Virus record (IMG/VR): IMGVR_UViG_3300017747_005082 | Coordinates: 9,618 to 73,617 of that record | Direction: 5' to 3' (one strand) | DNA length: 64,000 bases | From: a virus | Lineage: Duplodnaviria > Heunggongvirae > Uroviricota > Caudoviricetes | Part shown: in pieces, positions 36,786-49,719 of the stretch | Position numbering within the stretch: position 1 is the stretch's first letter | Layout: each line of letters starts with the position of its first letter | Made by a program: the position numbers and the translations under genes | Notes under the pieces: generated by a model | The model's input: the letters and a program-made list of their open reading frames with translations, nothing else | Databases searched by the model: none | Told to the model about the DNA's origin: nothing

Positions 36786-38396
36786 TTAAATTACTATTGC
36801 TTCAATTTCATCAATTAACGCTTTATATCCTTTACAATTAGATTGAATTAAATCAAATATCTTATCTGACCAACCAGCAATTTGTAAAACATTTAATGAT
36901 TTATCAAATACTGAAGTTCCCTTTGTTTGTTTAATATCAACACATATAGTATTACATTGTGGATTTACTTGTTTGAATTTTTTAAATAATATTTGAAATG
37001 ATCCTAAACCAGCATTTGAAGTATTATCCCATCCTCCAATTCCTCCAGAACTAATAACCATATCTGAAAATATAACTAAATTATCAACTTTTGTGTTATT
37101 TTTAATAACATCGTTTAAGAAATAATATAATCCATTTTCTGTATTGGCTCCACATTCTTTTCCTTTTTCAAATGAACGTTTATTAAAATCTAATAAACCT
37201 AATTTTCTATCCATATTAATTGAAATTAATTCATTTCCAAATAATCCCATATAAACATCTCTTTGGGAATATGCTAACATAGAACCAAATAAATTCCCAA
37301 TCATAGCAGTTGTTGTTTTAGAAAAAGCGGATATTTTAGAACTACCTCCTGCATCTCCTCTTACGGAACCTGAATGATCTACTAATATGGCAGTATTACC
37401 TTCTAATGCTGGAATATTATCTACAGAATATTCTAATGCTTTTTCTAATGCTTTTAATACTTTTTCTATAAGTACTTTAGGTTTCATATCTGATTCAAAA
37501 GCTATTTTAGAAGATGAAGTAGTTGGGTTTATATCTTCTACTTCTTTATATGCTGATACAAATCTAAAAGGTAATAATTTAGATTTTAACACTTTATCTC
37601 TATTAGTTAATTGACTAATAGCGTCATCTACTTTATCAGGAGCTAATAGAATAATATTTCTTAAATTTCTTACCAAATTCATCATTGGCATTCCTTTTAC
37701 ATTATCTAATACAGTAGTAATAGCTTCTTCTTTAAGAGTTTCAACTTTAACTCCTGTAGATTTAGCAATTTGACCTGCTTTAGACATTTCTTTTTCAAGA
37801 ATTTTAGTATTATATAATCCATCTAAAGATTCTCCTTTTATTAAACGTTTATACGCTTCTTCATTAATTTGAGAAGGTACTGGATGTGTTAAATTAACTA
37901 AATCTACTAATGAAATTCCTTTTTTAGCCATTTTATACTTATCTATTAAATAAGGATCCATTGACTCTAATTTAGATTTAAATCCTCTCTTCATAGCACT
38001 TGCTATTTTTGTATTTCCTTTTGAGAAATAATAAGCTAGAATTTCTGACATATCATCAGGTCTAGAAGCAATTTTTCTATAAAATCTTGAAGCATATTCT
38101 TTTCCTGATAATCTTGGAGCTAATTCTCCCGAAAGTAAATGAGTTACTGATCTCATATTAGCATCATTTCTTAGATATAAAGCTAATTTTGCTACAAATT
38201 GTTCATCAACAACAGAAGCAGCTTTATTTATTCTATCAACTACTTCTTTTTCTTTTTCATAATATGAATTTGAAAGAAATGTAGTCAAACAAGTTGATAC
38301 TAATTCTTCTTTAGCGCTTAATTGATACGCTTTTTCTCCCATTTTATTTACTGTAGTTGGAACTACTGGTTCTTTTGTTTTGTTAAATTTCGACAT
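36786..38396 (-). CDS. rsr: Ro60/Rsr TROVE-domain RNA-binding protein with C-terminal vWA domain
   Basis: FVAKLALYLR....MRS, KYK......SLVDLVNLTHP, LLPFRF..AY, LVDHSGS MIDAS, VIFSD. Confidence 0.9.
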   Translation of the reverse strand: MSKFNKTKEPVVPTTVNKMGEKAYQLSAKEELVSTCLTTFLSNSYYEKEKEVVDRINKAASVVDEQFVAKLALYLRNDANMRSVTHLLSGELAPRLSGKEYASRFYRKIASRPDDMSEILAYYFSKGNTKIASAMKRGFKSKLESMDPYLIDKYKMAKKGISLVDLVNLTHPVPSQINEEAYKRLIKGESLDGLYNTKILEKEMSKAGQIAKSTGVKVETLKEEAITTVLDNVKGMPMMNLVRNLRNIILLAPDKVDDAISQLTNRDKVLKSKLLPFRFVSAYKEVEDINPTTSSSKIAFESDMKPKVLIEKVLKALEKALEYSVDNIPALEGNTAILVDHSGSVRGDAGGSSKISAFSKTTTAMIGNLFGSMLAYSQRDVYMGLFGNELISINMDRKLGLLDFNKRSFEKGKECGANTENGLYYFLNDVIKNNTKVDNLVIFSDMVISSGGIGGWDNTSNAGLGSFQILFKKFKQVNPQCNTICVDIKQTKGTSVFDKSLNVLQIAGWSDKIFDLIQSNCKGYKALIDEIEAIVI

Positions 38397-38961
38397 GACT
38401 TAAAATTTTAATATTTAATATTTGTTCTAAATATTCAAACATAGGTTTGAATTCTTCTCTATATAATTCTTTTTTAATAATAGGATATTCTTCTTGGTAT
38501 TTATTATACATGGTTGAATTAGTAAGTAAACCATAAGAAGTATTTGCAATTATATCACATAATTTAACAAATAATCCTAAACGACATTCTTTTAAACCCA
38601 TAATATATTCAATTCCATGTCTTTCTTTTCTATTTTTACCTTTTAATTCAGTACAAGAATAAATAACTTCTGCAACTTCTTTAGAAATATTAATTTTATT
38701 AGATCCATTTGGATAATGTTCTTCAAAATATATAGAATATTGAAGTATATCATTATATGTTATTCTGGCATCTTCAATCAAATCATGCCCCCAAGCTCCA
38801 TTTAATGCTATACATAAATCTTTTGGATTTAATATAAATTGAAATTTTTCTACTTGTTTTGCTACTAGATTTAAATGAAATGAATATGGTAAATTTTTAT
38901 CATATTTTTGATTACAATTAATATCATGTTGTTGTTTACAAAATTCTATAAATTTACTCAT
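38383..38961 (-). CDS. RelA/SpoT-type HD hydrolase (small alarmone hydrolase/Mesh1-like)
   Basis: QKY...PYSFHL..V, AWGHDLIED, VKLCDIIAN. Confidence 0.7.
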   Translation of the reverse strand: MSKFIEFCKQQHDINCNQKYDKNLPYSFHLNLVAKQVEKFQFILNPKDLCIALNGAWGHDLIEDARITYNDILQYSIYFEEHYPNGSNKINISKEVAEVIYSCTELKGKNRKERHGIEYIMGLKECRLGLFVKLCDIIANTSYGLLTNSTMYNKYQEEYPIIKKELYREEFKPMFEYLEQILNIKILSHVEI

Positions 38962-39128
38962 AATCTCTATTTTTTAAATTAATATTATTATTTTCTTTTC
39001 TTTGAGATGGAGTAAAAAACATTGCTCGTTTAGGTCCTTTATCTATTTTATTTTTTAGAATAGATCCTACTCCATAACTATTTTTTAATTTTTTCTTTTT
39101 ATTTTGACTAGCCATAATTTTTAAAAAT

Positions 39129-39163
39129 AAAAAGGGTTAAAGTTGCTTAGCATCCTTAACCCT
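39129..39163 (-). terminator. terminator-like hairpin between the Y-like RNAs and the HD-TROVE genes
   Basis: agggttaa/ttaaccct stem followed by TTTTTATTTTT on minus strand. Confidence 0.5.
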
Positions 39164-39171
39164 GTTAATTT

Positions 39172-39310
39172 TAGTAGAGAAATCTAGTAGAGTGTTAATC
39201 TAAATGATTGTTTAAGAGACAATTGCCTTACCACTTGGCTAATTTTCCATGCAGAAAATATAGGATTCGAACCTATGAAAACGAAGTAACTCTAGCTATT
39301 ACAACTACTA
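39172..39310 (-). ncRNA. Y-RNA-like element with circularly permuted tRNA-like domain (YrlA-like)
   Basis: Outer TAGTAG/CTACTA stem, bulged-C helix, TACTTCG, then T-arm, loop-closed acceptor, D-arm, anticodon-like arm. Confidence 0.7.
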
Positions 39311-39319
39311 ATATAATTA

Positions 39320-39406
39320 ACAAGGGAATTATTGAACTGAGAATTTGGTTGAAGATTAATTTTAGAATAATTATGTTCGAAGTATCTCAAATTTCTTACC
39401 ACTTGT
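39320..39406 (-). ncRNA. minimal Y-RNA-like element
   Basis: ACAAG/CTTGT stem, TGGTAA, GAA(A)TTTG/CAAATTC stem, TACTTCG. Confidence 0.55.
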
Positions 39407-39415
39407 ATATGCGAT

Positions 39416-39550
39416 TAAGTAAGGGAAAGTTTAGAAAAGGTTGTTATAGTTTTTTGTGGGAGTTGAACCCACGACCTTAAATTCCAAATATTTACGCTCA
39501 ACCAACTGAGCTTAAAAAACGAAGTAACTTTTCTAGTTACCACTTACTTA
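39416..39550 (-). ncRNA. Y-RNA-like element enclosing a complete tRNA-like cloverleaf (TTG loop) at 39448-39520
   Basis: TAAGTAAG/CTTACTTA, TGGTAA, TAGAAAAG/CTTTTCTA, TACTTCG, then GTTTTTT/AAAAAAC acceptor with D, anticodon and T arms. Confidence 0.7.
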
Positions 39551-39564
39551 TATTTATCAATGAA

Positions 39565-39610
39565 CTTATTATATTGTGAATATATGAATTAAAAATTTAT
39601 AATCCAAATA
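39565..39610 (-). promoter_or_regulatory. Bacteroidota-type promoter driving the Y-like RNA cluster
   Basis: TTGGATT...TTCATATATTCACAATATA, matches the repeated promoter motif. Confidence 0.6.
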
Positions 39611-39652
39611 TATTTTAAGTAATTTTTATATTATTTATATAAAAATAATTTG

Positions 39653-39726
39653 TGGCCAAGAAAGGTAACGATCCTTCTATCTTCTGATTATGAGTCAGTT
39701 GCTTTTACCATCTAAGCTACATGGCC
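39653..39726 (-). tRNA. tRNA-Met/Ile2 (CAT)
   Basis: Cloverleaf, loop CTCATAA, atypical T-loop ATCGTTA. Confidence 0.75.
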
Positions 39727-39909
39727 AATTTTGTGGAGAATAGGTACTCACCCCACTATACTTTCCCATACCTAATAACTTAAGATACTAAAGCTTTAAA
39801 TTTTAATACACTTTATAGCCCTGTAGTTTTCGCTGTTCTCGAAACCGTATCTACTTAGGAGACTTCTGCTATAAAATTCACATAAAACTGATGTTAAGTA
39901 TTAAAAATA

Positions 39910-40176
39910 TTATTCTGTGTATTCTAAGATATATTTATCAATTAATGATTGAGATATTTCTTTTTTAACACATTTTTGTCTTTCTTTACCTTTCAAAACA
40001 GCGTAAGCTTCATATAAATGTCTTAATTTTTCTCTATTACTAAAAACATTATAAGTGGCTTGATCTGCTTCTACTGTTCTTATACCGGTAAAATGAATTG
40101 TTTTTCTTTGTGGTTTTAAAACTACTTGTTGATCAACTAATTGTTTAATATCTGTTCTAATTTTTGTATATTTCAT
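39910..40176 (-). CDS. hypothetical basic protein, translationally coupled (ATGA) to the Pth2-like gene
   Basis: Its ATG overlaps the TGA of 40173-40514. Confidence 0.65.
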   Translation of the reverse strand: MKYTKIRTDIKQLVDQQVVLKPQRKTIHFTGIRTVEADQATYNVFSNREKLRHLYEAYAVLKGKERQKCVKKEISQSLIDKYILEYTE

Positions 40177-40514
40177 GATAATGTTAATTTTAATTTTTTA
40201 AATAATTGTTTGTGTAATTCTGATGGAAGTGATTCAATAGCAATAGCTGTTAATTGATTACCTATATCAGGTTCTAAAAACACACTATATTTAATTTTAA
40301 GTTCATCTAATTTTGATCTTAAGATCTCAATTTTGAACTCTGATTCTTCCAAACAGCATAAATAATTACTTTTAAATTGCCATTCTTTAAATTCATGATA
40401 ATACTTTACAGCAAAATCAGCTAACGCATGAGCGGATTGTACTACCTTATAACCAGGTGTTAAATCCTTTCTTGTAACAATAGTGATAAAATCACCTTCT
40501 TTAATCTACTTCAT
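40173..40514 (-). CDS. peptidyl-tRNA hydrolase 2 (Pth2)-like protein with in-frame TAG at codon 3
   Basis: Hand translation MK*IKEGDFITIVTRKDLTPGYKVVQSAHALADF...FLEPDIGNQLTAIAI...; 114 codons, TAG at 40506-40508; absent from the ORF track. Confidence 0.8.
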
Positions 40515-40537
40515 AATAAAAATTATTTAATTAGTAG

Positions 40538-40611
40538 TGATTTTAATGGGACTCGAACCCATAACCTTCAGTTTTAGAGACTGCTGCTCTTACCAATTGA
40601 GCTATAAAACC
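40538..40611 (-). tRNA. amber suppressor tRNA (anticodon CTA)
   Basis: Cloverleaf GGTTTTA/TAAAATC, D-arm GCTC/GAGC, loop CTCTAAA, T-arm ATGGG-TTCGAGT-CCCAT. Confidence 0.9.
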
Positions 40612-40831
40612 AATTTTCATTACATGAGATTACTGTAACTAGATTTTAACTGTTTTTTTTCTTAAAAATTCAACAATTAGTGTCTTACCACATGAACTAA
40701 AATCAACCTTTCCGTGGAGGAGTAGGTAGTTCTCCTTTTATCCAATCGGCCCCTTCTGTAAAATCGTAGACGGAACAACTATAACTTTGTTAATGTAAGT
40801 TACAAAACATCAAGTATCTCTTACTTATTCG

Positions 40832-40901
40832 TAGCGGTCGCAGGAATCGAACCTGACCTTAGGGTTATGAGCCCTTCGTGCTACCCTTACACTACCCCGC
40901 G
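40832..40901 (-). tRNA. initiator-like tRNA-Met (CAT), atypical
   Basis: CGCGGGG start, GGG/CCC anticodon stem, mismatch at 1:72; shortened variable/T region. Confidence 0.7.
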
Positions 40902-41036
40902 ATATATTTTTATTATTAAACGGTGACAGCTCTTCATGTTTTTTGAACATTATGTCAATAATATGTAATATAAATCCGCTGTACCTAAAGAGTCTCGTAT
41001 CTCTCATTGATAGCCGCCTCCGTTTAATAATTTTTG

Positions 41037-41110
41037 CCGTCCTTATGGGACTCGAACCCATGATCTCCTACGTGACAGGCAGGCATCCACTCCAACTGGA
41101 CCGAAAGACG
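41037..41110 (-). tRNA. tRNA-Asp (GTC)
   Basis: Cloverleaf, loop CTGTCAC, G73. Confidence 0.9.
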
Positions 41111-41202
41111 AAGCTTGGTGTTTTATATTAGTTTCCATTTTTTTAATATAAAAAATCGACCACCGCCTCAAACACCATGAGGGATAAATGCTTTAAAAAT
41201 TG

Positions 41203-41275
41203 TGGATACGCAGGGATTCGAACCCTATCTTCCTAATTGCAAATCAGGAGCATTTGCCATTTATGCTAGCGACCC
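41203..41275 (-). tRNA. tRNA-Ala (TGC)
   Basis: Loop TTTGCAA, G3:U70, imperfect lower acceptor stem. Confidence 0.8.
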
Positions 41276-41279
41276 ATTG

Positions 41280-41352
41280 TAAGAGAGAATACTAAGAAGA
41301 GTTTATTGTTAAAATCCATTTATCGAAGTAACTCTATCTTTTACTACTCTTA
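41280..41352 (-). ncRNA. minimal Y-RNA-like element
   Basis: TAAGAG/CTCTTA stem, TAGTAA, GA(T)AGAGTT/AACTCTTC bulged helix, TACTTCG. Confidence 0.6.
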
Positions 41353-41353
41353 G

Positions 41354-41427
41354 TAACGCATATGGGATTCGAACCCACGATCTTATCATAGAAAGTGATA
41401 CGTGTTAGCCAACTACACTAATGCGTC
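41354..41427 (-). tRNA. tRNA-Glu (TTC)
   Basis: Cloverleaf, loop CTTTCTA. Confidence 0.85.
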
Positions 41428-41606
41428 ATTTTAAATAAGTTGTAGAGGCTTTTAGGGATAATTATAGGCAACTTTTCACCGTAAACTCGGCTTCCCAAAC
41501 TCATTTGCACTTATATCTTATCTTTTACGCGTGCAACTTATTATATTGTAAATATATGAACTTATATTTTATAAATCAAATATTTTTTAAAATATTTTTA
41601 TTTTTG

Positions 41607-41682
41607 AGCAGAATGTGGGATTCGAACCCACGATGATTCTACATTGGAAGTGTAGCGCAATCGGCCGCTATGCGAATTCTGC
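41607..41682 (-). tRNA. tRNA-Gly (TCC)
   Basis: Cloverleaf, loop CTTCCAA, U73. Confidence 0.9.
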
Positions 41683-41740
41683 AAATAGTAAGAAATAAAA
41701 TATAGAACCACGAGCACTGATGAATTCTATTCTTACTTTG

Positions 41741-41814
41741 TACTCTGAGAGGGGGTCGAACCCTCAAAAATCTTGTTCCTAAGACAAGCGCGTATGCCAT
41801 TCCGCCATCAGAGC
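41741..41814 (-). tRNA. tRNA-Leu (TAG), short variable region
   Basis: Cloverleaf, loop CTTAGGA, variable region only ATTTTT. Confidence 0.8.
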
Positions 41815-41822
41815 AGTTTTTG

Positions 41823-41907
41823 TACCGCTACCGGGAGTTGAACCCGGACGCCCATTCTGGACACAAGATTTTAAGTCTTGCATGACTACCAATTCCATCA
41901 TAGCGGC
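41823..41907 (-). tRNA. tRNA-Leu (TAA)
   Basis: Class II cloverleaf, loop CTTAAAA. Confidence 0.92.
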
Positions 41908-41945
41908 GTTTAAAGAAGAGTATGATGTTGATTCTCTCTTCTTTG

Positions 41946-42021
41946 AGGTAAGGATAGGATTTGAACCTACGAACATATGGGTTGCAACCATCTCCCTTAA
42001 ACCAAACTCGGGCACCTTACC
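41946..42021 (-). tRNA. tRNA-Cys (GCA)
   Basis: Cloverleaf, loop TTGCAAC, U73. Confidence 0.9.
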
Positions 42022-42029
42022 AAGTAAAT

Positions 42030-42098
42030 TAAATAGTATGGTTTTGAATTCATATCTCCTCGAAAATCAAGGGCTCTAATATTTGAGCTAACTATTTA
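42030..42098 (-). pseudogene. degenerate tRNA-like sequence
   Basis: TAAATAG/CTATTTA acceptor and GCTC/GAGC D-arm, but broken anticodon and T arms. Confidence 0.5.
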
Positions 42099-42234
42099 AT
42101 TATCATATTGTCCATAATTTGTTCTTGGACTTATTTCTTCAAAATCTCTAAAACTTGATTCATCTTCCATAATCCAATTATTTAAATTTCTATGTTATAA
42201 ATATATGAATTAAAATTTTATAATCCAAATTTTT

Positions 42235-42738
42235 TTAAAAAAGTAAATATTTTTCCCAACTTTTAGGTAAATTATCTATACCTTTTAACAACATAAGATA
42301 ATGTGGACGTTTTGGTTGAGGAATTTCTTTACCATATTCTGTTAAAGTTAAATCCGCTTTTTCACTATTACATTTTTTACATGCTGTAACTACATTTTCA
42401 AAAGTATTCTGACCACCTTTTGATGTTGGATGAACATGATCTAATGTTAAAGTTTTTTTATTATCACAACCACAATAAACACATTCAAAATTATCTCTTT
42501 TAAATACATTTTCTCTTGAAAATGGAACTTTTTGAAAAGGTTGATTTACATATTTAAAAACTCTAATAACTGATGGTTTTTTAATATCTAATTCAGGATT
42601 AACTAGTTTAAAGCTCTCGTCATGTTCCTGAATTACTTCAGCATTTCCTTTATAGGAAATAACAAAGGCTCTTTCTGTTGAGATAATACTTCTAGCTATA
42701 TAACTTGAATCTATTACTAGTGTTTTTCTATTATTCAT
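42235..42738 (-). CDS. HNH endonuclease (McrA-like)
   Basis: RDNFECVYCG...TLDHVHP..KGG...ENVVTACKKCN. Confidence 0.9.
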   Translation of the reverse strand: MNNRKTLVIDSSYIARSIISTERAFVISYKGNAEVIQEHDESFKLVNPELDIKKPSVIRVFKYVNQPFQKVPFSRENVFKRDNFECVYCGCDNKKTLTLDHVHPTSKGGQNTFENVVTACKKCNSEKADLTLTEYGKEIPQPKRPHYLMLLKGIDNLPKSWEKYLLF

Positions 42739-42920
42739 GACTTTATTTTATGTTGTGTTTTTCTATTATGTTTCCAAGAACGGTATTCTCTATATTTAAA
42801 ATATCCATGTCCTGCTTCACATCCTTCTTCACAATATGGAGGATATAGATCATTTAAAAACATTACTCTATATTCCTTATTGTTAATAGCTTTTTTATAT
42901 CTATCTCTATTTATACTCAT
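42735..42920 (-). CDS. small basic protein (RSWK..RKTQ motif)
   Basis: 61 aa; TGA overlaps the HNH ATG. Confidence 0.6.
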   Translation of the reverse strand: MSINRDRYKKAINNKEYRVMFLNDLYPPYCEEGCEAGHGYFKYREYRSWKHNRKTQHKIKS

Positions 42921-42932
42921 TTTTGCTCATTT

Positions 42933-42974
42933 TTAGGTTATTTAAACCTAATAAGCGTCAAATTTCTTTTTCAT
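42933..42974 (-). promoter_or_regulatory. TAG-terminated uORF (MKKKFDAY*) plus hairpin upstream of 42735-42920
   Basis: ATG 42972-74, TAG 42948-50, TAA 42942-44; TTAGGTT/AACCTAA stem. Confidence 0.55.
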
Positions 42975-43060
42975 AATTACTAATTTATATGTTTAAAACA
43001 ATCTTGATAGAATTCTGGTAAGTTTTTCTTTACCAAACTACTAAAAATGGGTGCGACTTG

Positions 43061-43131
43061 CACAGATGGTTGCAATCGAAGCAACTCGTTGAGATTTTGG
43101 AGATCTAATCGACACCAAGCCTGTCATCTGT
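43061..43131 (-). tRNA. tRNA-Trp (CCA), weak D-arm
   Basis: ACAGATG/CATCTGT acceptor, loop CTCCAAA, G73. Confidence 0.75.
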
Positions 43132-43138
43132 ATTTTTG

Positions 43139-43211
43139 AACCCCCATTCAGATTCGAACTGAAATAAAATATCTTAGAAGGATATGGCATTTCCATTTAT
43201 GCTACAGGGGC
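43139..43211 (-). tRNA. tRNA-Arg (TCT)
   Basis: Cloverleaf, loop CTTCTAA. Confidence 0.85.
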
Positions 43212-43490
43212 AAATTTACCTAGATTTCGTTCTAGGAAGACGTAAATAATAAATTCCTGGAACCTATTATTTAACAGCTTATTAAGCCGCTATTGCAAAG
43301 TTGTCCTTTACGTTTATATTAATCTCTATCTATTACTTAATCTAATGTCAAAGCCATTCCTCCCCTTATACAGTAGAGATAACTATAAGTTATCTCAACA
43401 CCCTAAAATACACATGGTATAAGGGCTTAGTGGAGAGGCTGGGTTTCGAACCCAGGTCCATTAAAATGTTAATAAACGTCAACAATTAAT
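43212..43490 (-). ncRNA. ssrA: circularly permuted (two-piece) tmRNA
   Basis: 3' piece GAC-CTGGG-TTCGAAA-CCCAG-CCTCTCC-A (to 43431) precedes 5' piece GGGGAGG-AATGGCTTT-GAC (from 43365); G3:U70; tag frame 43282-43311 VKDNFAIAA* TAA TAA; outer ends approximate. Confidence 0.88.
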
Positions 43491-43495
43491 ACTTG

Positions 43496-43570
43496 TGCAC
43501 CAACGAGGATTCGAACCCACGATATCTCTTAGTCCGTAGCTAAGTGTTTTTCCATTTAAACTATAAGTGC
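43496..43570 (-). tRNA. tRNA-Arg (ACG)
   Basis: Cloverleaf, loop CTACGGA. Confidence 0.85.
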
Positions 43571-43623
43571 TGGTGGGCATCCAAACCTAACTAAATAGGA
43601 AACCTGGCCATGTAGGTTTTTAG

Positions 43624-43712
43624 GGTGAAAGATGGGATTCGAACCCACATTAGAAAATTAATTCATTCCAGATCCACAATCTAGTCGGCATCCCTTACCG
43701 GTTACAATCACC
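43624..43712 (-). tRNA. tRNA-His (GTG) with 19-nt variable region
   Basis: G-1:C73, loop TTGTGGA. Confidence 0.8.
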
Positions 43713-43789
43713 ATATTAAAAATAAAGCTGACCTCCTAGTGGGCTTTAACCGTTAGCATTTAAGATACATTTACTCCACTTTATTTTAG

Positions 43790-43862
43790 TAGCGATGATA
43801 GGTTTTGAACCTACTACCTGAAGTTTATGAATCTTCCGCTCTACCAATTGAGCTACATCGCC
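43790..43862 (-). tRNA. tRNA-Met/Ile2 (CAT)
   Basis: Cloverleaf, loop TTCATAA. Confidence 0.85.
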
Positions 43863-43866
43863 AAAT

Positions 43867-43938
43867 AATCCCCTAATGGATTTCATACCATTATCTCCTG
43901 CTAGCTAGTCGGTTTATGAATATTAACTTAAAGGGATT
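43867..43938 (-). pseudogene. degenerate tRNA-like sequence
   Basis: AATCCC/GGGATT closing stem and AATGG-TATGAAAT-CCATT T-like arm; no proper anticodon arm. Confidence 0.4.
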
Positions 43939-43940
43939 TG

Positions 43941-44025
43941 AAGAGAGTATGAGATTCGAACTCATGCCGCGAATTAACGCGGACCGATTAGCAATCGGAT
44001 GCAATAACCACTCTGCCAACTCTCC
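43941..44025 (-). tRNA. tRNA-Ser (GCT)
   Basis: Class II cloverleaf, loop TTGCTAA. Confidence 0.9.
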
Positions 44026-44080
44026 ATAAATACCTCACCCTGAGCGCGCTGATCTTAAGGGAAGCGGGGTGAGTATGTTG

Positions 44081-44155
44081 TACTCATAGCTGGATTTGAA
44101 CCAGCGCGTAAAATCTTATCAGGATTTCTTTCTACCAGACTGAAAATATATGAGT
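44081..44155 (-). tRNA. tRNA-Ile (GAT)
   Basis: Cloverleaf, loop CTGATAA. Confidence 0.85.
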
Positions 44156-44233
44156 AAATAATTATAAGCTTAGGGACCACTTTTATGTTGCAACTAACCC
44201 TTGATTGAAAAGATGTGCTTCACTTATAATTTG

Positions 44234-44305
44234 CTCCTCCGGGGAATTTCGAAATCCCGACCATCGACTTAACAGGTCGCCGCTCTACCTCTGAGCTACG
44301 GAGAA
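44234..44305 (-). tRNA. tRNA-Asn (GTT)
   Basis: Cloverleaf, loop CTGTTAA, G73. Confidence 0.9.
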
Positions 44306-44346
44306 TTTTATTTTATTTTATTTTATTATTTCAATTTCGATTTTTG

Positions 44347-44420
44347 TGGAGATAGATGGATTTGAACCATCGTCCACCTCATCTTCAGTGAGGCACTCTA
44401 CCAGGCTGAGTTATATCTCC
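44347..44420 (-). tRNA. tRNA-Phe (GAA)
   Basis: Cloverleaf, loop CTGAAGA. Confidence 0.9.
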
Positions 44421-44480
44421 AATTTACTACTTTGATTTGGACACAGGACAAAGTAGAGAAAAAACCTCCCGTTTTGTTAA

Positions 44481-44714
44481 TTATTGGTGGTGTTTTATAT
44501 AACGACCAAATTTATCAATACGTAAATTCATACGTGTTAAAGATAAATTCCAAGAATTAAAATTAGACAATTTTGTTTTTTGTTGTGCCATTTTAAGAGC
44601 ACTAACTTCTGCTTTTGAACGATCCTTCTCTGTTGTTTCAACAAAGTAAGTGGGAGCTTGAGCACCAGTAATACTAGTAGGAACTACTCTCCAAATTCTA
44701 ATTTGTGTTTCCAT
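44481..44714 (-). CDS. hypothetical protein
   Basis: 77-aa ORF inside the tRNA array. Confidence 0.6.
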   Translation of the reverse strand: METQIRIWRVVPTSITGAQAPTYFVETTEKDRSKAEVSALKMAQQKTKLSNFNSWNLSLTRMNLRIDKFGRYIKHHQ

Positions 44715-44716
44715 AA

Positions 44717-44759
44717 TTTTAACGCTAAGTTAAAACTAGGAAGAATTTAGATTTGTCAT
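44717..44759 (-). promoter_or_regulatory. TAG-terminated uORF (MTNLNSS*) plus hairpin upstream of 44481-44714
   Basis: ATG 44757-59, TAG 44736-38, TAA 44730-32; TTTTAAC/GTTAAAA stem ends 2 nt before ATG. Confidence 0.6.
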
Positions 44760-44769
44760 AATTTTAATT

Positions 44770-45051
44770 TTATTTTCTTGAATATTTTTTAACATCTTCA
44801 AGGTCCCATCCTCTAAAAATGTTCATTCTATTATCTTTTTCTTTATCAACATAAATTCTAAAAATATAATCACAATAACTATATTGATCATAAATTGATT
44901 TAGGATTTGTAAAAGAAAAATCTTCATCCCAAAATTTAGAGCTTTTTATTTCATTATTCCAAGCTCTTCTAATTGTTCTCCAATATAAAGATGTTCTTTT
45001 GTAATTTCTTGGTTTGTCTTTAATTATTGGTTTTTTTCGACTTCTTGACAT
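44770..45051 (-). CDS. small basic protein (MSRSRKKP...DY...RK family)
   Basis: 93 aa, Arg/Lys/aromatic-rich. Confidence 0.6.
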   Translation of the reverse strand: MSRSRKKPIIKDKPRNYKRTSLYWRTIRRAWNNEIKSSKFWDEDFSFTNPKSIYDQYSYCDYIFRIYVDKEKDNRMNIFRGWDLEDVKKYSRK

Positions 45052-45057
45052 TTTTTT

Positions 45058-45096
45058 CTAGGTTTAAATTAATACCTAGAAGACTGAATATTTCAT
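45058..45096 (-). promoter_or_regulatory. TAG-terminated uORF (MKYSVF*) plus hairpin upstream of 44770-45051
   Basis: ATG 45094-96, TAG 45076-78, TAA 45064-66; CTAGGT/ACCTAG stem ends 6 nt before ATG. Confidence 0.6.
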
Positions 45097-45099
45097 AAT

Positions 45100-45747
45100 T
45101 TATTTTTTAATATTTCTTCCTTTATAAGTAGGTGTTTGGGAATGACAATTTGGGCATAATATTTTTAAATTTTCTAATAAATTATTTGAAGAATTACCAT
45201 CTATATGCTCTAAATCAAATGAAATTATTTTATTATTCCATTCTTTAATTCCACAATCTTCACATTGTTCTATTTTCAATCCTTCTCTATATAAATATCT
45301 TTTTAAACATCCAGTAAATGAATTATAATATTTATTTTCAATAAATTCTTCTCCTTTTAATAGTTTAGAAAAATCTCTAAATTTCCCTCTCCCAGATTTT
45401 TGTAATTTTTTATTTTTTATATAATTTAAATTATATTTATTGAATAATAATATTATATATGGTTTTGAAATTTTATAAATTTTATTTATCTTATAAATAG
45501 AATAGTTTAATTTTATTACTTCATCTAAAAATGTTTTTTCATCTTTAAATCCTAATTTTTTTAATATTTCCCAATAATCTATTGGTAATTTTTTTGGTTT
45601 AGATTTATTCCTTTTTTTGGTTTTGGGGTAATCTTTTAGATAATATCCTACAGTACCCTTTCCAATTTGTAAAATTTCACAAATTTGAGGTATAGTTTTT
45701 AATTCTTTCCTCAAATCCCAAATCATTTCTTTCCTTTCTAAATTCAT
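45100..45747 (-). CDS. HNH homing-endonuclease-like protein with N-terminal HTH
   Basis: CEDCG...DLEHIDGNSSNN.LENLKILCPNCHSQT. Confidence 0.85.
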   Translation of the reverse strand: MNLERKEMIWDLRKELKTIPQICEILQIGKGTVGYYLKDYPKTKKRNKSKPKKLPIDYWEILKKLGFKDEKTFLDEVIKLNYSIYKINKIYKISKPYIILLFNKYNLNYIKNKKLQKSGRGKFRDFSKLLKGEEFIENKYYNSFTGCLKRYLYREGLKIEQCEDCGIKEWNNKIISFDLEHIDGNSSNNLLENLKILCPNCHSQTPTYKGRNIKK

Positions 45748-45799
45748 ATTGTATATTTAATATAAATATACGAACATATTTATAATTAGCAAAGGTTTG

Positions 45800-45880
45800 T
45801 GGGAGGTAGTGGACTCGAACCACTCCCGTTAGGATTCGATTTACAGTCGAACTGCTATATCCAAATAACTTTTACCTCCC
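45800..45880 (-). tRNA. tRNA-Tyr (GTA)
   Basis: Class II cloverleaf, loop CTGTAAA. Confidence 0.85.
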
Positions 45881-45891
45881 AATTTATTTTG

Positions 45892-45962
45892 TACCTCGGG
45901 AAGGAATCGAACCTTCTCCATATCCGTGTAAAAGATAGACGCTACCATTACATCACCGAGGT
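45892..45962 (-). tRNA. tRNA-Val (TAC)
   Basis: Cloverleaf, loop TTTACAC. Confidence 0.85.
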
Positions 45963-46000
45963 ATAATTAGGTTTTTTATGGAAACCTGTAAAACCATTTG

Positions 46001-46073
46001 TACCCCCGGCAGGCCTCGAACCCACTACCCCTCCGTTAAAAGCGGAGTGCCCGTCCACATGAGCTTCGAAGGC
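46001..46073 (-). tRNA. tRNA-Lys (TTT)
   Basis: Cloverleaf, loop CTTTTAA. Confidence 0.9.
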
Positions 46074-46126
46074 AAATTTAATTCTATGATACCACAAGGT
46101 CTATGAATTAATAACAGTCTCCATCG

Positions 46127-46199
46127 TCTAAGTGAAAGGTCTCGAACCTTCGGCCTCGTAATCCCAAATCACGCGCTCTACCAACTGAGCTACACCTAG
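46127..46199 (-). tRNA. tRNA-Pro (TGG)
   Basis: Cloverleaf, loop TTTGGGA. Confidence 0.9.
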
Positions 46200-46207
46200 A
46201 AATATTG

Positions 46208-46278
46208 TTTCTCTGCAGGGACTCGAACCCCGACGATAAAATCCAAAATTTTAGATGCTACCATTACATCACAGAGAA
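46208..46278 (-). tRNA. tRNA-Gln (TTG)
   Basis: Cloverleaf, loop TTTTGGA. Confidence 0.85.
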
Positions 46279-46284
46279 ATATTG

Positions 46285-46373
46285 AGGAAGAAGTGGGACT
46301 CGAACCCACAACCCAGTTACTCACCGAATTACTACTTTTCAAGAGTAGCCCCTCATCCAGCCGGATTCCTTCC
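46285..46373 (-). tRNA. tRNA-Ser (TGA)
   Basis: Class II cloverleaf, loop CTTGAAA. Confidence 0.88.
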
Positions 46374-46473
46374 AAATTTTACCGATATGTCAAAGTACGA
46401 CTTATTTAATTTCTTATTTAGTAAATATATGAATTTAATTCTTATAAACCAAATATTTTTTAAATTCTTTTTG

Positions 46474-46545
46474 AGGTCAATAACAGATTCGAACTGTTGT
46501 CTCCTGGTTACAAAGCAGGAATTTTACCAATTAAACTAATAGACC
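46474..46545 (-). tRNA. tRNA-Thr (TGT)
   Basis: Cloverleaf, loop TTTGTAA. Confidence 0.88.
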
Positions 46546-49552: not shown

Positions 49553-49719
49553 TGATAATGACAGGATTCGAACCTGTAATTAGGATTTGCTTTTACCCGC
49601 TCTTGATTATCTGCTGACGGCCCACAACAAGTACATCCTATTAATTGTGGTGTTTTACTGTTATTCATTATCTAGCTCAAAGCTACTACAGTCAGCGTCT
49701 ACCATTCCGCCACATTACC
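49553..49719 (-). ncRNA. tRNA-like RNA with greatly expanded anticodon and variable regions (167 nt)
   Basis: GGTAATG/CATTATC acceptor, Leu-type D-arm, ACAGG-TTCGAAT-CCTGT T-arm; GCTGAC/GTCAGC stem encloses two sub-hairpins. Confidence 0.75.

What the first reader, a model, noticed from the sequence alone, without database searches (positions are those of the whole stretch)
39172..39310. Circularly permuted tRNA-Lys-like domain joined to the Y scaffold through its variable loop
Seen order 5' to 3': T-arm (ATAGG-TTCGAAT-CCTAT), acceptor closed by a loop (ATTTTC-TGCATG-GAAAAT), D-arm (GCC-AAGTGGTAA-GGC), then an intact anticodon arm (ATTGT-CTCTTAA-ACAAT, anticodon CTT). Established: YrlA has the T, closed acceptor, D order but loses the anticodon arm. 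Inference: this variant keeps a Lys anticodon loop but cannot be aminoacylated, so it could be a decoy for anticodon nucleases (e.g. PrrC-type tRNA-Lys cutters) or for ribosome or synthetase binding.
Basis: partly seen in the sequence, partly recalled or inferred. Interest (0 to 1): 0.75.

Follow-up and report, generated by a model that had tools for sequence, protein, structure and literature searches.

The report
Phage Y RNA with full anticodon arm
Next to its own Ro60 (Rsr) gene, a 180-kb freshwater phage encodes a small RNA that is a back-to-front tRNA look-alike which, unlike the described bacterial Y RNA YrlA, keeps a complete and evolutionarily conserved anticodon arm, so Ro60 partner RNAs can mimic a whole tRNA and not only its elbow.

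Summary
On the minus strand, 39311-39171 encodes a stem-enclosed RNA. Its core (39276-39207) reads T arm, 7-bp loop-closed acceptor, D arm, then a 5-bp/7-nt anticodon arm (CUCUUAA).

It lies about 780 nt upstream of a phage Ro60/Rsr gene on the same strand. It shares a conserved bulged scaffold with three neighbouring modules.

I found seven further examples of this wiring in other phage contigs. Seven aligned members, this one included, pair in 98% of cells. All five anticodon-stem pairs change compensatorily, the 15:48 tertiary pair covaries, and loop positions 32, 33, 37 and 38 are tRNA-like. The anticodon itself differs: CUU, UCC, UGA, UUU, UGA, UCA, CAU (AUG in the eighth, which was not aligned).

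The scaffold leaves from the variable-arm position. In canonical YrlA it leaves from the anticodon stem, and close relatives carry canonical YrlA at the same site.

Best reading: a new wiring variant of the YrlA-type Y RNA, a complete tRNA mimic tethered to Rsr.

A working tRNA-Lys is unlikely. AAG makes up 8.8% of Lys codons, and the discriminator does not track the anticodon. The PrrC/Lys-decoy idea is only weakly supported.

The scan noted similar RNAs on other DNA (e1-5411948).

The parts
39289..39311 (-). 5' strand of the Y scaffold: outer helix UUAGUAG (39311-39305), bulged U (39304), UG (39303-39302), internal-loop UAAUAGC, inner helix UAGAGU (39294-39289)
   Evidence: Read. Same design as the other modules. 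Duplex with the 3' strand -15.3 kcal/mol.
39277..39288 (-). Conserved scaffold motif UACUUCG (39288-39282) plus connector UUUUC. C39277 acts as tRNA position 48.
   Evidence: The motif is present in every module. It occurs at 2.09/kb upstream of Rsr genes against 0.04/kb elsewhere. The G15:C48 / A15:U48 pair covaries in 7/7 RNAs.
39260..39276 (-). T arm ATAGG-TTCGAAT-CCTAT
   Evidence: 100% paired in 7 homologs, with 2 pairs compensatory.
39242..39259 (-). Loop-closed acceptor stem: AUUUUCU / GGAAAAU (7 bp, G1.U72), loop GCAU
   Evidence: The five inner pairs are all compensatory across homologs. The loop reads N73-C-A then U(-1), like the ends of this phage's own tRNA genes.
39224..39241 (-). 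U8 A9, D arm GCC-AAGUGGUAA-GGC, A26
   Evidence: Rfam tRNA and YrlA alignments.
39207..39223 (-). Anticodon arm AUUGU-CUCUUAA-ACAAU (anticodon CUU, 39216-39214)
   Evidence: 5/5 pairs show compensatory change and 100% are paired in 7 RNAs. Loop is always 7 nt, with C32 7/7, U33 6/7, A37 7/7, A38 6/7.
39171..39206 (-). 3' connector CAUUUAGAUUAAC (39206-39194) and 3' strand of the scaffold: inner helix ACUCUA (39193-39188), pyrimidine-rich loop strand, CU, outer helix CUACUAA (39177-39171)
39123..39162 (-). Terminator-like hairpin GGGUUAA...UUAACCC followed by a U run, ending the three-module transcription unit
   Evidence: Read. An equivalent hairpin plus U run follows the last module in L158, L160 and L162. 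The consensus scanner does not flag it because the loop is 14 nt.
36786..38396 (-). Phage Ro60/Rsr (TROVE) gene, 536 aa, the presumed protein partner
   Evidence: Pfam TROVE E 2.6e-15. Best solved relative is Thermus phage phiLo Ro60, 9KOP/9L5Y, E 1.5e-20. PHROG 850.
39318..39408 (-). Neighbouring cargo-less Y-scaffold module (same transcription unit)
39411..39555 (-). Neighbouring Y-scaffold module whose cargo is a complete normal-order tRNA-Gln(UUG) (39448-39520)

Best explanation
This is a phage Y RNA of the YrlA kind, the third of three tandem scaffold modules transcribed just upstream of the phage's own Ro60/Rsr gene.

Shown:
- A conserved terminal stem encloses the cargo: outer helix, one bulged U, two G/C pairs, internal loop, inner helix GAGU/ACUC, then UACUUCG.
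- The cargo folds like a whole tRNA: T arm, 7-bp acceptor closed by a 4-nt loop, D arm and a full anticodon arm.
- The stem leaves the tRNA body where a class II tRNA has its long variable arm. In canonical YrlA it leaves from the anticodon stem.
- The anticodon arm is kept by selection.

Inferred:
- The bulged stem binds the Rsr ring.
- The tRNA-shaped cargo is the effector module. It is a non-decoding tRNA look-alike that docks onto, or competes for, a host factor that reads tRNA shape including the anticodon loop. This tethers Rsr (and, as in other Ro60-Y RNA particles, host PNPase) to that factor.
- The wiring is what a tandem duplication of one tRNA gene gives when the outer halves are turned into the Rsr-binding stem.
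For: - Same strand and about 780 nt upstream of a TROVE/Rsr ORF.
- That protein's closest solved relative is a phage Ro60 shown to bind phage Y-like RNAs and host PNPase (PMC12135203).
- YrlA is the only non-tRNA Rfam family that matches.
- The scaffold motif is about 50-fold enriched within 1.2 kb upstream of Rsr genes and present in 71 of 83 loci.
- The outer helix covaries across about 20 different sequences. The 2-bp step switches GG:CC <-> AG:CU (11 vs 11) and the bulged U is kept.
- Relatives with Rsr 71-77% identical carry canonical YrlA-like cargo at the same last position.
- L160 (Rsr 74%) carries the same anticodon-arm wiring there.
- Seven RNAs with this wiring are 98.4% paired, all four helices covary, and no shuffle of 500 reached the observed score.
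- The Levitt 15:48 pair covaries and CA follows the anticodon stem in 6/7 RNAs.
- Un-permuted versions are all called tRNAs by ARAGORN.
Against: - No RNA data exist for this phage, so ends, processing and Rsr binding are unobserved (listed under Tried and rejected only).
- The Rfam YrlA score is far below the gathering threshold (27 vs 69 bits).
- One complete 115-kb phage record with the same wiring (L068) has no TROVE gene. The RNA can therefore exist without a phage-encoded Rsr.
- The scaffold also encloses an apparently ordinary tRNA-Gln. This could mean it is a processing cassette and not only an Rsr handle.
- In this module the CGAA-type motif reads CUUCGUU.
Confidence: 0.8

Rival explanations
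1. Working permuted tRNA gene. RNase P cuts 5' of G1 in the acceptor loop, the 3' end is trimmed and receives CCA. The resulting two-piece tRNA-Lys(CUU), held together by the acceptor and by the scaffold acting as a long variable arm, is charged and decodes AAG, in analogy to two-piece tmRNA.
For: - The 7-bp acceptor has G(+1) and U(-1), and its loop reads N73-C-A like the phage's own tRNA 3' ends.
- All cloverleaf parts and tertiary pairs are present.
- M. smegmatis YrlA, with a 7-bp acceptor, is cut by RNase P and CCA-added in vivo (PMC4201824).
- The same phage carries a permuted two-piece tmRNA gene that needs this kind of host processing.
- No other tRNA-Lys(CUU) exists in the genome.
Against: - AAG is only 8.8% of Lys codons.
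- Every other NNR box is served by a single U34 tRNA.
- RNAs sharing nearly the same acceptor and G73 carry CUU, UGA, UCA or UCC. The phage's real tRNA-Lys has A73 and its tRNA-Gly has U73, so the discriminator does not track identity.
- L129 already has tRNA-Lys(UUU) beside its UUU-bearing copy.
- L160 has an 8-bp acceptor and L018 has G33.
- No RNA ligase or CCA enzyme is found in the phage.
- The RNA sits in the Rsr scaffold.
Confidence: 0.08
2. Anticodon-nuclease decoy. The Rsr-bound mimic offers an uncleavable or sacrificial anticodon loop to host tRNA-cutting defence nucleases, or brings Rsr/PNPase to them or to cut tRNAs. The displayed anticodon is tuned to the host's nuclease.
For: - Positions 32, 33, 37 and 38 are conserved while 34-36 differ between lineages.
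- In a large related clade, scaffolded tRNA-like cargos keep GUA (21/25 distinct sequences) and UUU (12/14) across different stem alleles.
- From my own knowledge, Tyr and Lys are the classic targets of anticodon nucleases such as PrrC, PARIS and colicin E5.
- The locus sits in a tRNA/tmRNA/HD-hydrolase island.
- Bacterial rsr-Y RNA operons respond to tRNA damage (PMC7790460).
Against: - There is no direct evidence of any nuclease interaction.
- The anticodons in the permuted set are heterogeneous (Gly, Ser, opal, Met as well as Lys).
- Many relatives do without an anticodon arm.
- The host is unknown.
Confidence: 0.22
3. Processing cassette. The 'scaffold' is a leader-trailer duplex that serves maturation or stability of tRNA-type cargo (like rRNA processing stems). 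The permuted element is a by-product of tRNA-gene rearrangement in such a cassette, with no role for Rsr.
For: The same scaffold encloses a normal tRNA-Gln in the window and complete tRNAs in relatives. L068 and L018 lack a TROVE gene in their records.
Against: - The scaffold is tightly linked to Rsr genes.
- Cargo-less modules are common and conserved, which a processing cassette does not explain.
- The stem-bulge-stem plus CGAA-type loop motif is the published Y RNA hallmark (PMC12135203, PMC4201824).
Confidence: 0.1
4. Decaying relic. The element is a tandem-tRNA remnant on its way to becoming a canonical YrlA, and the anticodon arm has not yet been lost and has no function.
For: It fits the dimeric-tRNA origin model for YrlA (Wang 2018, 10.1101/312249). 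Relatives at the same site lack the arm.
Against: All five stem pairs show compensatory changes, and the loop length and hallmark bases are kept in seven divergent RNAs spread over at least two scaffold types.
Confidence: 0.04

Closest known systems
YrlA (Y RNA-like A; Rfam RF02553; Chen et al. 2014 PMC4201824; structure in Wang et al. 2018, 10.1101/312249)
   Same: Encoded next to and on the same strand as Ro60/Rsr. Has a terminal bulged stem plus a tRNA-like domain in the order T arm, loop-closed acceptor, D arm. tRNA tertiary nucleotides are conserved, including a covarying Levitt pair. Found in phages as well as bacteria.
   Different: In YrlA the Rsr-binding stem continues from the anticodon stem, there is no anticodon loop, and a V hairpin often sits before the T arm. 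Here the stem leaves from the variable-arm position and a complete 5-bp/7-nt anticodon arm follows the D arm. Scores 27 bits against a gathering score of 69.
Deinococcus radiodurans Yrn1 (Chen et al. 2014)
   Same: A Y RNA that can be drawn with a 5-bp 'anticodon arm'.
   Different: In Yrn1 the order is not permuted (the scaffold sits at the acceptor end), the loop has 6 nt, the D arm is doubtful and there is no V arm (PMC4201824). The window's tRNA-Gln module and the GUA/UUU cargos of relatives resemble that topology. The RNA studied here does not.
Thermus phage phiLo Ro60 with Yrl1/Yrl2 (PMC12135203)
   Same: A phage-encoded Ro60 with tandem Y-like RNAs just upstream. It is the closest solved relative of this Rsr. 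The RNAs have a stem-bulge-stem with a CGAA-type motif and form complexes with host PNPase.
   Different: Yrl1 and Yrl2 are described as simple hairpin RNAs without a tRNA-like domain.
Circularly permuted tRNA genes of Cyanidioschyzon merolae, some green algae and Thermofilum (recalled from my own knowledge; referred to in 10.1101/312249)
   Same: The 3' half lies upstream of the 5' half, the acceptor ends are joined by a short linker, and all cloverleaf parts are present.
   Different: Those genes are matured through a bulge-helix-bulge cut, circularisation and RNase P/Z into working tRNAs. Here there is no BHB motif, no ligase in the phage, no decoding need, and the element is embedded in an Rsr scaffold.
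Two-piece (permuted) tmRNA, e.g. the phage's own copy at 43282-43477 (Rfam RF04321)
   Same: A permuted tRNA-like domain whose acceptor is closed in the precursor, in the same genome.
   Different: tmRNA has a long intervening segment, a tag reading frame and no anticodon arm.

Membership tests
Y RNA / YrlA | Encoded within about 4 kb of a Ro60/Rsr (TROVE) gene on the same strand | tested here: met
   The Rsr ORF at 36786-38396(-) lies about 780 nt downstream of the RNA. The same holds in L160, L129/L153 and L194. It does not hold in L068, a complete record with no TROVE gene.
Y RNA / YrlA | 5'/3' terminal stem with a bulge (Ro-binding module) flanking an internal loop with the CGAA-type motif | tested here: met
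   The outer helix, bulged U and 2 bp covary across modules. The motif UACUUCG(AA) is present in all modules. In this particular module it reads CUUCGUU, so the AA is missing.
Y RNA / YrlA | tRNA-like domain in the order T arm, loop-closed acceptor, D arm, with tRNA tertiary nucleotides | tested here: met
Y RNA / YrlA | Rsr-binding stem continues from the anticodon stem; no anticodon loop | tested here: not met
   A full anticodon arm lies at 39223-39207, and the stem joins between position 43/44 and position 48.
Y RNA / YrlA | Reaches the Rfam RF02553 gathering score | tested here: not met
   27 bits against 69. Canonical relatives L162, L158 and L231 also score only 30-38 bits.
Y RNA / YrlA | Physically bound by Ro60/Rsr | not testable with these tools
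   Needs co-immunoprecipitation or EMSA.
Circularly permuted tRNA gene (functional) | 3' half upstream of 5' half, with all cloverleaf elements present | tested here: met
Circularly permuted tRNA gene (functional) | Leader and trailer form a bulge-helix-bulge site for splicing endonuclease and ligation | tested here: not met
   The leader-trailer duplex is helix, 1-nt bulge, 2 bp, then a large internal loop. No RtcB, Rnl1 or Rnl2 is found in the phage (the Rnl1 control search rang nowhere, so it is uninformative).
Circularly permuted tRNA gene (functional) | Anticodon and identity elements fit a decoding role | tested here: not met
   AAG is 8.8% of Lys codons. G73 is shared by RNAs with four different anticodons. 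The phage's own tRNA-Lys has A73.
Circularly permuted tRNA gene (functional) | Mature aminoacylated tRNA is produced | not testable with these tools
   No RNA run holds this sequence.
Yrn1-type Y RNA | Normal D-anticodon-T order with the scaffold at the acceptor end | tested here: not met
   The order here is T, acceptor, D, anticodon.

The most novel reading that the evidence does not exclude
Phage Ro60 particles carry interchangeable, anticodon-bearing tRNA bodies on one constant handle: permuted through the variable arm here, normal order in relatives. The displayed anticodon is the specificity element. It aims Rsr (with host PNPase) at, or shields the cell's tRNAs from, host anticodon-reading defence nucleases. 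Alternatively, after RNase P cutting and CCA addition, it yields an Rsr-tethered chargeable two-piece tRNA.
Probability: 0.2. Interest if true: 0.85.

Novelty: new variant of a known kind. Interest (0 to 1): 0.6.

Why it matters
The function of the tRNA-like half of bacterial Y RNAs is an open question. Published work concludes only that an unknown factor reads the D/T elbow.

A natural series of Rsr-linked RNAs changes that picture. The same handle carries no cargo, an elbow-only mimic, a whole permuted tRNA with a conserved anticodon loop, or a normal tRNA. This shows that the anticodon arm can be part of the effector module.

It also supplies ready-made variants for binding and cleavage tests with Rsr, PNPase, RNase P, the CCA enzyme, synthetases and anticodon nucleases.

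It provides the intermediate form predicted by the 'dimeric tRNA' model for the origin of YrlA.

If the anticodon proves to be a targeting element, this would link Ro60 particles to the tRNA-centred arms race between phages and hosts.

Tried and rejected
- BLASTN of the locus against GenBank phages: no match.
- Public sequencing runs: one DNA holder (freshwater metagenome, probably the source sample) and no RNA holder listed. Nothing can be said on expression or RNA ends.
- Phage-encoded RtcB, Rnl2-type ligase or CCA-adding enzyme as support for a repair/circularisation route: none found. The Rnl1 search is uninformative because its control rang nowhere.
- The idea that GAGTTACTTCG is a promoter: rejected. 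It lies inside the conserved stem design and is followed by a covarying 3' partner.
- Matching the anticodon arms to resident tRNAs as a sign of gene conversion: the best matches have 1-4 mismatches to tRNAs of other phages. By my rough estimate that is within chance for about 1,600 tRNAs, so no claim is made.
- RNAalifold on MAFFT-aligned cargo-less modules recovered only the inner helix because the 3' strands were out of register. The outer helix was therefore tested with a script. That script's shuffle control is weak (7.29 observed vs 6.96 shuffled), so the argument rests on fixed position and GG:CC/AG:CU covariation.
- Model R1 also hits junctions of tightly packed tandem tRNAs. These were removed by overlap with ARAGORN calls.
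- Sim & Wolin 2018 and Sim et al. 2020 reviews could not be read. A prior description of this wiring there cannot be excluded.

Full report
**What is there**

The window is part of a complete 180.5-kb virus record with terminal repeats, about 25% G+C, from a freshwater metagenome. All genes in this part lie on the minus strand. They include a tRNA array (25 ARAGORN calls), a permuted tmRNA (Rfam RF04321) and an amber-suppressor tRNA.

- T arm AUAGG-UUCGAAU-CCUAU, 39276-39260.
- Acceptor AUUUUCU/GGAAAAU, closed by the loop GCAU, 39259-39242.
- U8 A9, then D arm GCC-AAGUGGUAA-GGC.
- A26, then anticodon arm AUUGU-CUCUUAA-ACAAU, 39223-39207.

Two corrections apply. The acceptor is 7 bp with a 4-nt loop. 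The enclosing stem reaches 39311 and 39171.

Rfam's tRNA model scores the 5' half at 28.7 bits (cut-off 29). YrlA is the only other meaningful match, at 27 bits and E 0.0015, far below its gathering score of 69. MFE folding returns the T arm, the acceptor and the enclosing stem.

**Genomic setting**

A 536-aa TROVE/Ro60 (Rsr) ORF lies at 36786-38396 on the same strand (Pfam E 2.6e-15). Two small ORFs separate it from the RNA. One is an HD-type phosphohydrolase (PHROG 990).

The closest solved relative of this protein is the Ro60 of Thermus phage phiLo (9KOP/9L5Y, E 1.5e-20). That protein binds two phage Y-like RNAs encoded just upstream of it and forms complexes with host PNPase (PMC12135203).

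A hairpin followed by a U run (39162-39123) follows the RNA. Relatives have an equivalent terminator after their last module.

**The scaffold**

The RNA is the third of three tandem modules. A fourth lies at 41273-41359. All share one design:
- An outer helix that is free in sequence but always complementary.
- One bulged U.
- A 2-bp step that switches GG:CC <-> AG:CU (11 vs 11 among perfectly paired modules).
- An internal loop, UAA.. opposite ..AUU.
- An inner helix GAGU/ACUC.
- The motif UACUUCG.
- The cargo.

I reached them independently.

The motif occurs at 2.09 per kb within 1.2 kb upstream of Rsr genes on the same strand. Elsewhere in 83 Rsr-bearing loci it occurs at 0.04 per kb, and 71 of the 83 have at least one copy. 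Many of these loci are close relatives, so they are not independent.

A stem-bulge-stem flanking a loop with a CGAA-type motif is the published hallmark of Y RNAs (PMC4201824, PMC12135203). Cargo-less modules here read UUCGAA. The module studied reads UUCGUU.

Cargo differs from module to module:
- Nothing.
- Canonical YrlA-like (V, T, closed acceptor, D).
- A normal tRNA, such as the window's tRNA-Gln at 39448-39520.
- An acceptor-less tRNA-like body.
- The permuted body with anticodon arm studied here.

**Homologs and covariation**

Pattern scans of viral and metagenome contigs, look-ups of Rsr homologs and a covariance model (R1) gave seven further RNAs with the wiring T, closed acceptor, D, anticodon arm:

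| Locus | Anticodon | Notes |
|---|---|---|
| L160 | UCC | Rsr 74% identical; RNA directly upstream of Rsr |
| L168 | UGA | Same scaffold and acceptor as the window |
| L129 / L153, first copy | UUU | Contig has a TROVE gene just downstream |
| L129 / L153, second copy | UGA | Tandem with the first copy |
| L068 | UCA | Complete 115-kb record without a TROVE gene |
| L018 | CAU | Has G33 |
| L194 | AUG | Found later; not included in the alignment |

On the alignment of seven RNAs (the window plus all of the above except L194), 98.4% of cells are standard pairs, against 69.5% in shuffles. No shuffle of 500 reached the observed score, and sliding the partners gave 29-48%.

All five anticodon-stem pairs and all five counted acceptor pairs show compensatory changes. 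The loop is always 7 nt, with C32 in 7/7, U33 in 6/7, A37 in 7/7 and A38 in 6/7.

The base before the T stem covaries with position 15: G:C in two RNAs, A:U in five. CA follows the anticodon stem in 6/7. The strand 5' of the T arm therefore enters at tRNA position 48, and the strand 3' of the anticodon stem leaves at position 44/45.

Un-permuted constructs, built in a script with a 5-nt variable loop and an added CCA, are all called tRNAs by ARAGORN.

**Relation to canonical YrlA**

In YrlA the Rsr-binding stem continues from the anticodon stem and the anticodon loop is absent (PMC4201824; 10.1101/312249).

Close relatives of this phage carry such canonical cargo at the same last position before the terminator. 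These are L158 (Rsr 77%) and L162 (71%), whose best Rfam hit is YrlA at 30-38 bits.

A large clade with Rsr about 55% identical has a canonical module with the same T arm and almost the same acceptor as the window, but no anticodon arm.

Both forms are five-helix junctions modelled on a class II tRNA. They differ only in which helix is left open to become the handle.

The form with the anticodon arm is what a tandem duplication of one tRNA gene would give. This matches the 'dimeric tRNA' origin model cited in 10.1101/312249. The acceptor loop GCAU reads like the N73-C-A start of this phage's tRNA trailers joined to the U(-1) of its leaders.

**Is it a working tRNA-Lys?**

Arguments for:
- The 7-bp acceptor has G(+1) and U(-1).
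- M. smegmatis YrlA is cut by RNase P and receives CCA in vivo (PMC4201824).
- The same genome carries a two-piece tmRNA gene.

Arguments against:
- AAG is 8.8% of Lys codons, and all other NNR boxes are served by U34 tRNAs only.
- RNAs with nearly the same acceptor and G73 carry four different anticodons. The phage's real tRNA-Lys has A73 and its tRNA-Gly has U73.
- L129 has a normal tRNA-Lys(UUU) beside its UUU-bearing copy.
- L160 has an 8-bp acceptor.
- No ligase or CCA enzyme was found in the phage.

I judge cleavage by RNase P plausible. I judge a decoding role unlikely, at about 8%.

**What the anticodon arm may do**

The arm is under selection, but the anticodon differs between lineages. 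A dedicated tRNA-Lys/PrrC decoy is therefore not indicated.

In the 55% clade, the normal-order cargos keep GUA (21 of 25 distinct sequences) and UUU (12 of 14) across two or three different stem alleles. Their acceptor, D and T parts are nearly invariant. This suggests the triplet itself matters there.

From my own knowledge, Tyr and Lys tRNAs are common targets of anticodon nucleases. That keeps a decoy or adapter reading alive, but nothing here tests it.

**Verdict**

This is a real, conserved RNA. It is a new wiring variant of the YrlA-type Y RNA that mimics a whole tRNA.

I found no description of it in the papers I could search. Two reviews could not be read.

The scan has noted similar permuted, anticodon-bearing RNAs beside Ro60 genes on other DNA (e1-5411948).

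Noticed in passing
window 39411-39555 (-), tRNA-Gln 39448-39520: A complete normal-order tRNA-Gln(UUG) sits inside a full Y scaffold. The motif UACUUC|G abuts tRNA position +1. A second tRNA-Gln(UUG) lies in the array at 46207-46278.
   Followed up: partly
window 39318-39408 (-) and 41273-41359 (-): Two cargo-less copies of the same scaffold. The second lies inside the tRNA array, just upstream of tRNA-Ala.
   Followed up: partly
L231:2490-2910, L183:2540-2900 and about 70 similar IMG/VR loci (L176-L251): A clade with Rsr about 55% identical has three modules upstream of Rsr: a canonical YrlA-like one, then two normal-order tRNA-like cargos attached through a short acceptor. Their anticodons are GUA (variants GUU, GCA) and UUU (variants UUC, GUU). 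Anticodon stems occur in 2-3 alleles while the rest of the cargo is nearly invariant.
   Followed up: partly
L160:2155-2300 and L160:2551-2614: One relative (Rsr 74%) carries four cargo types in a row, including a permuted Leu-like body without an anticodon loop and an acceptor-less tRNA-like body (loop CUUUUCA).
   Followed up: no
L068:1560-1720, L163, L165, L169, L170: A second scaffold type marked by ...CAGCAAA... 5' of the T arm. L068 (anticodon UCA) combines it with the anticodon-arm wiring and lies in a complete 115-kb record that has no TROVE gene.
   Followed up: partly
window, all 25 tRNA genes 39448-46545: Nearly all (23 of 25) of the tRNA genes continue N73-C-(A/T) after the acceptor, and none encodes CCA. 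The position before +1 is usually T.
   Followed up: no
window 38383-38961 (-): A 192-aa HD-type metal-dependent phosphohydrolase (PHROG 990, E 9e-24) lies between the Y RNAs and Rsr. It is conserved at this place in L003, L004 and L158.
   Followed up: no
L004:2835-2852, L158:40-58, L160:2488-2500, L162:2608-2628: The conserved sequence ACGTTCTTTAAAATATT lies a few bases 5' of the first scaffold module of a series. It is probably the promoter of the Y RNA unit. No clear copy was seen in the window.
   Followed up: no
window 49553-49719 (-) and 40833-40900 (-): Rfam tRNA hits that ARAGORN does not call. One spans 167 nt (33.8 bits) and may be an interrupted tRNA. The other is 68 nt (38.9 bits).
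   Followed up: no
L194:5375-5463, L184:2838-2924: Further permuted cargos with a hairpin after the D arm. L194 has a 7-nt loop UUAUGGU and lies downstream of Rsr. L184 has a 9-nt loop, so not every such hairpin is anticodon-like.
   Followed up: no
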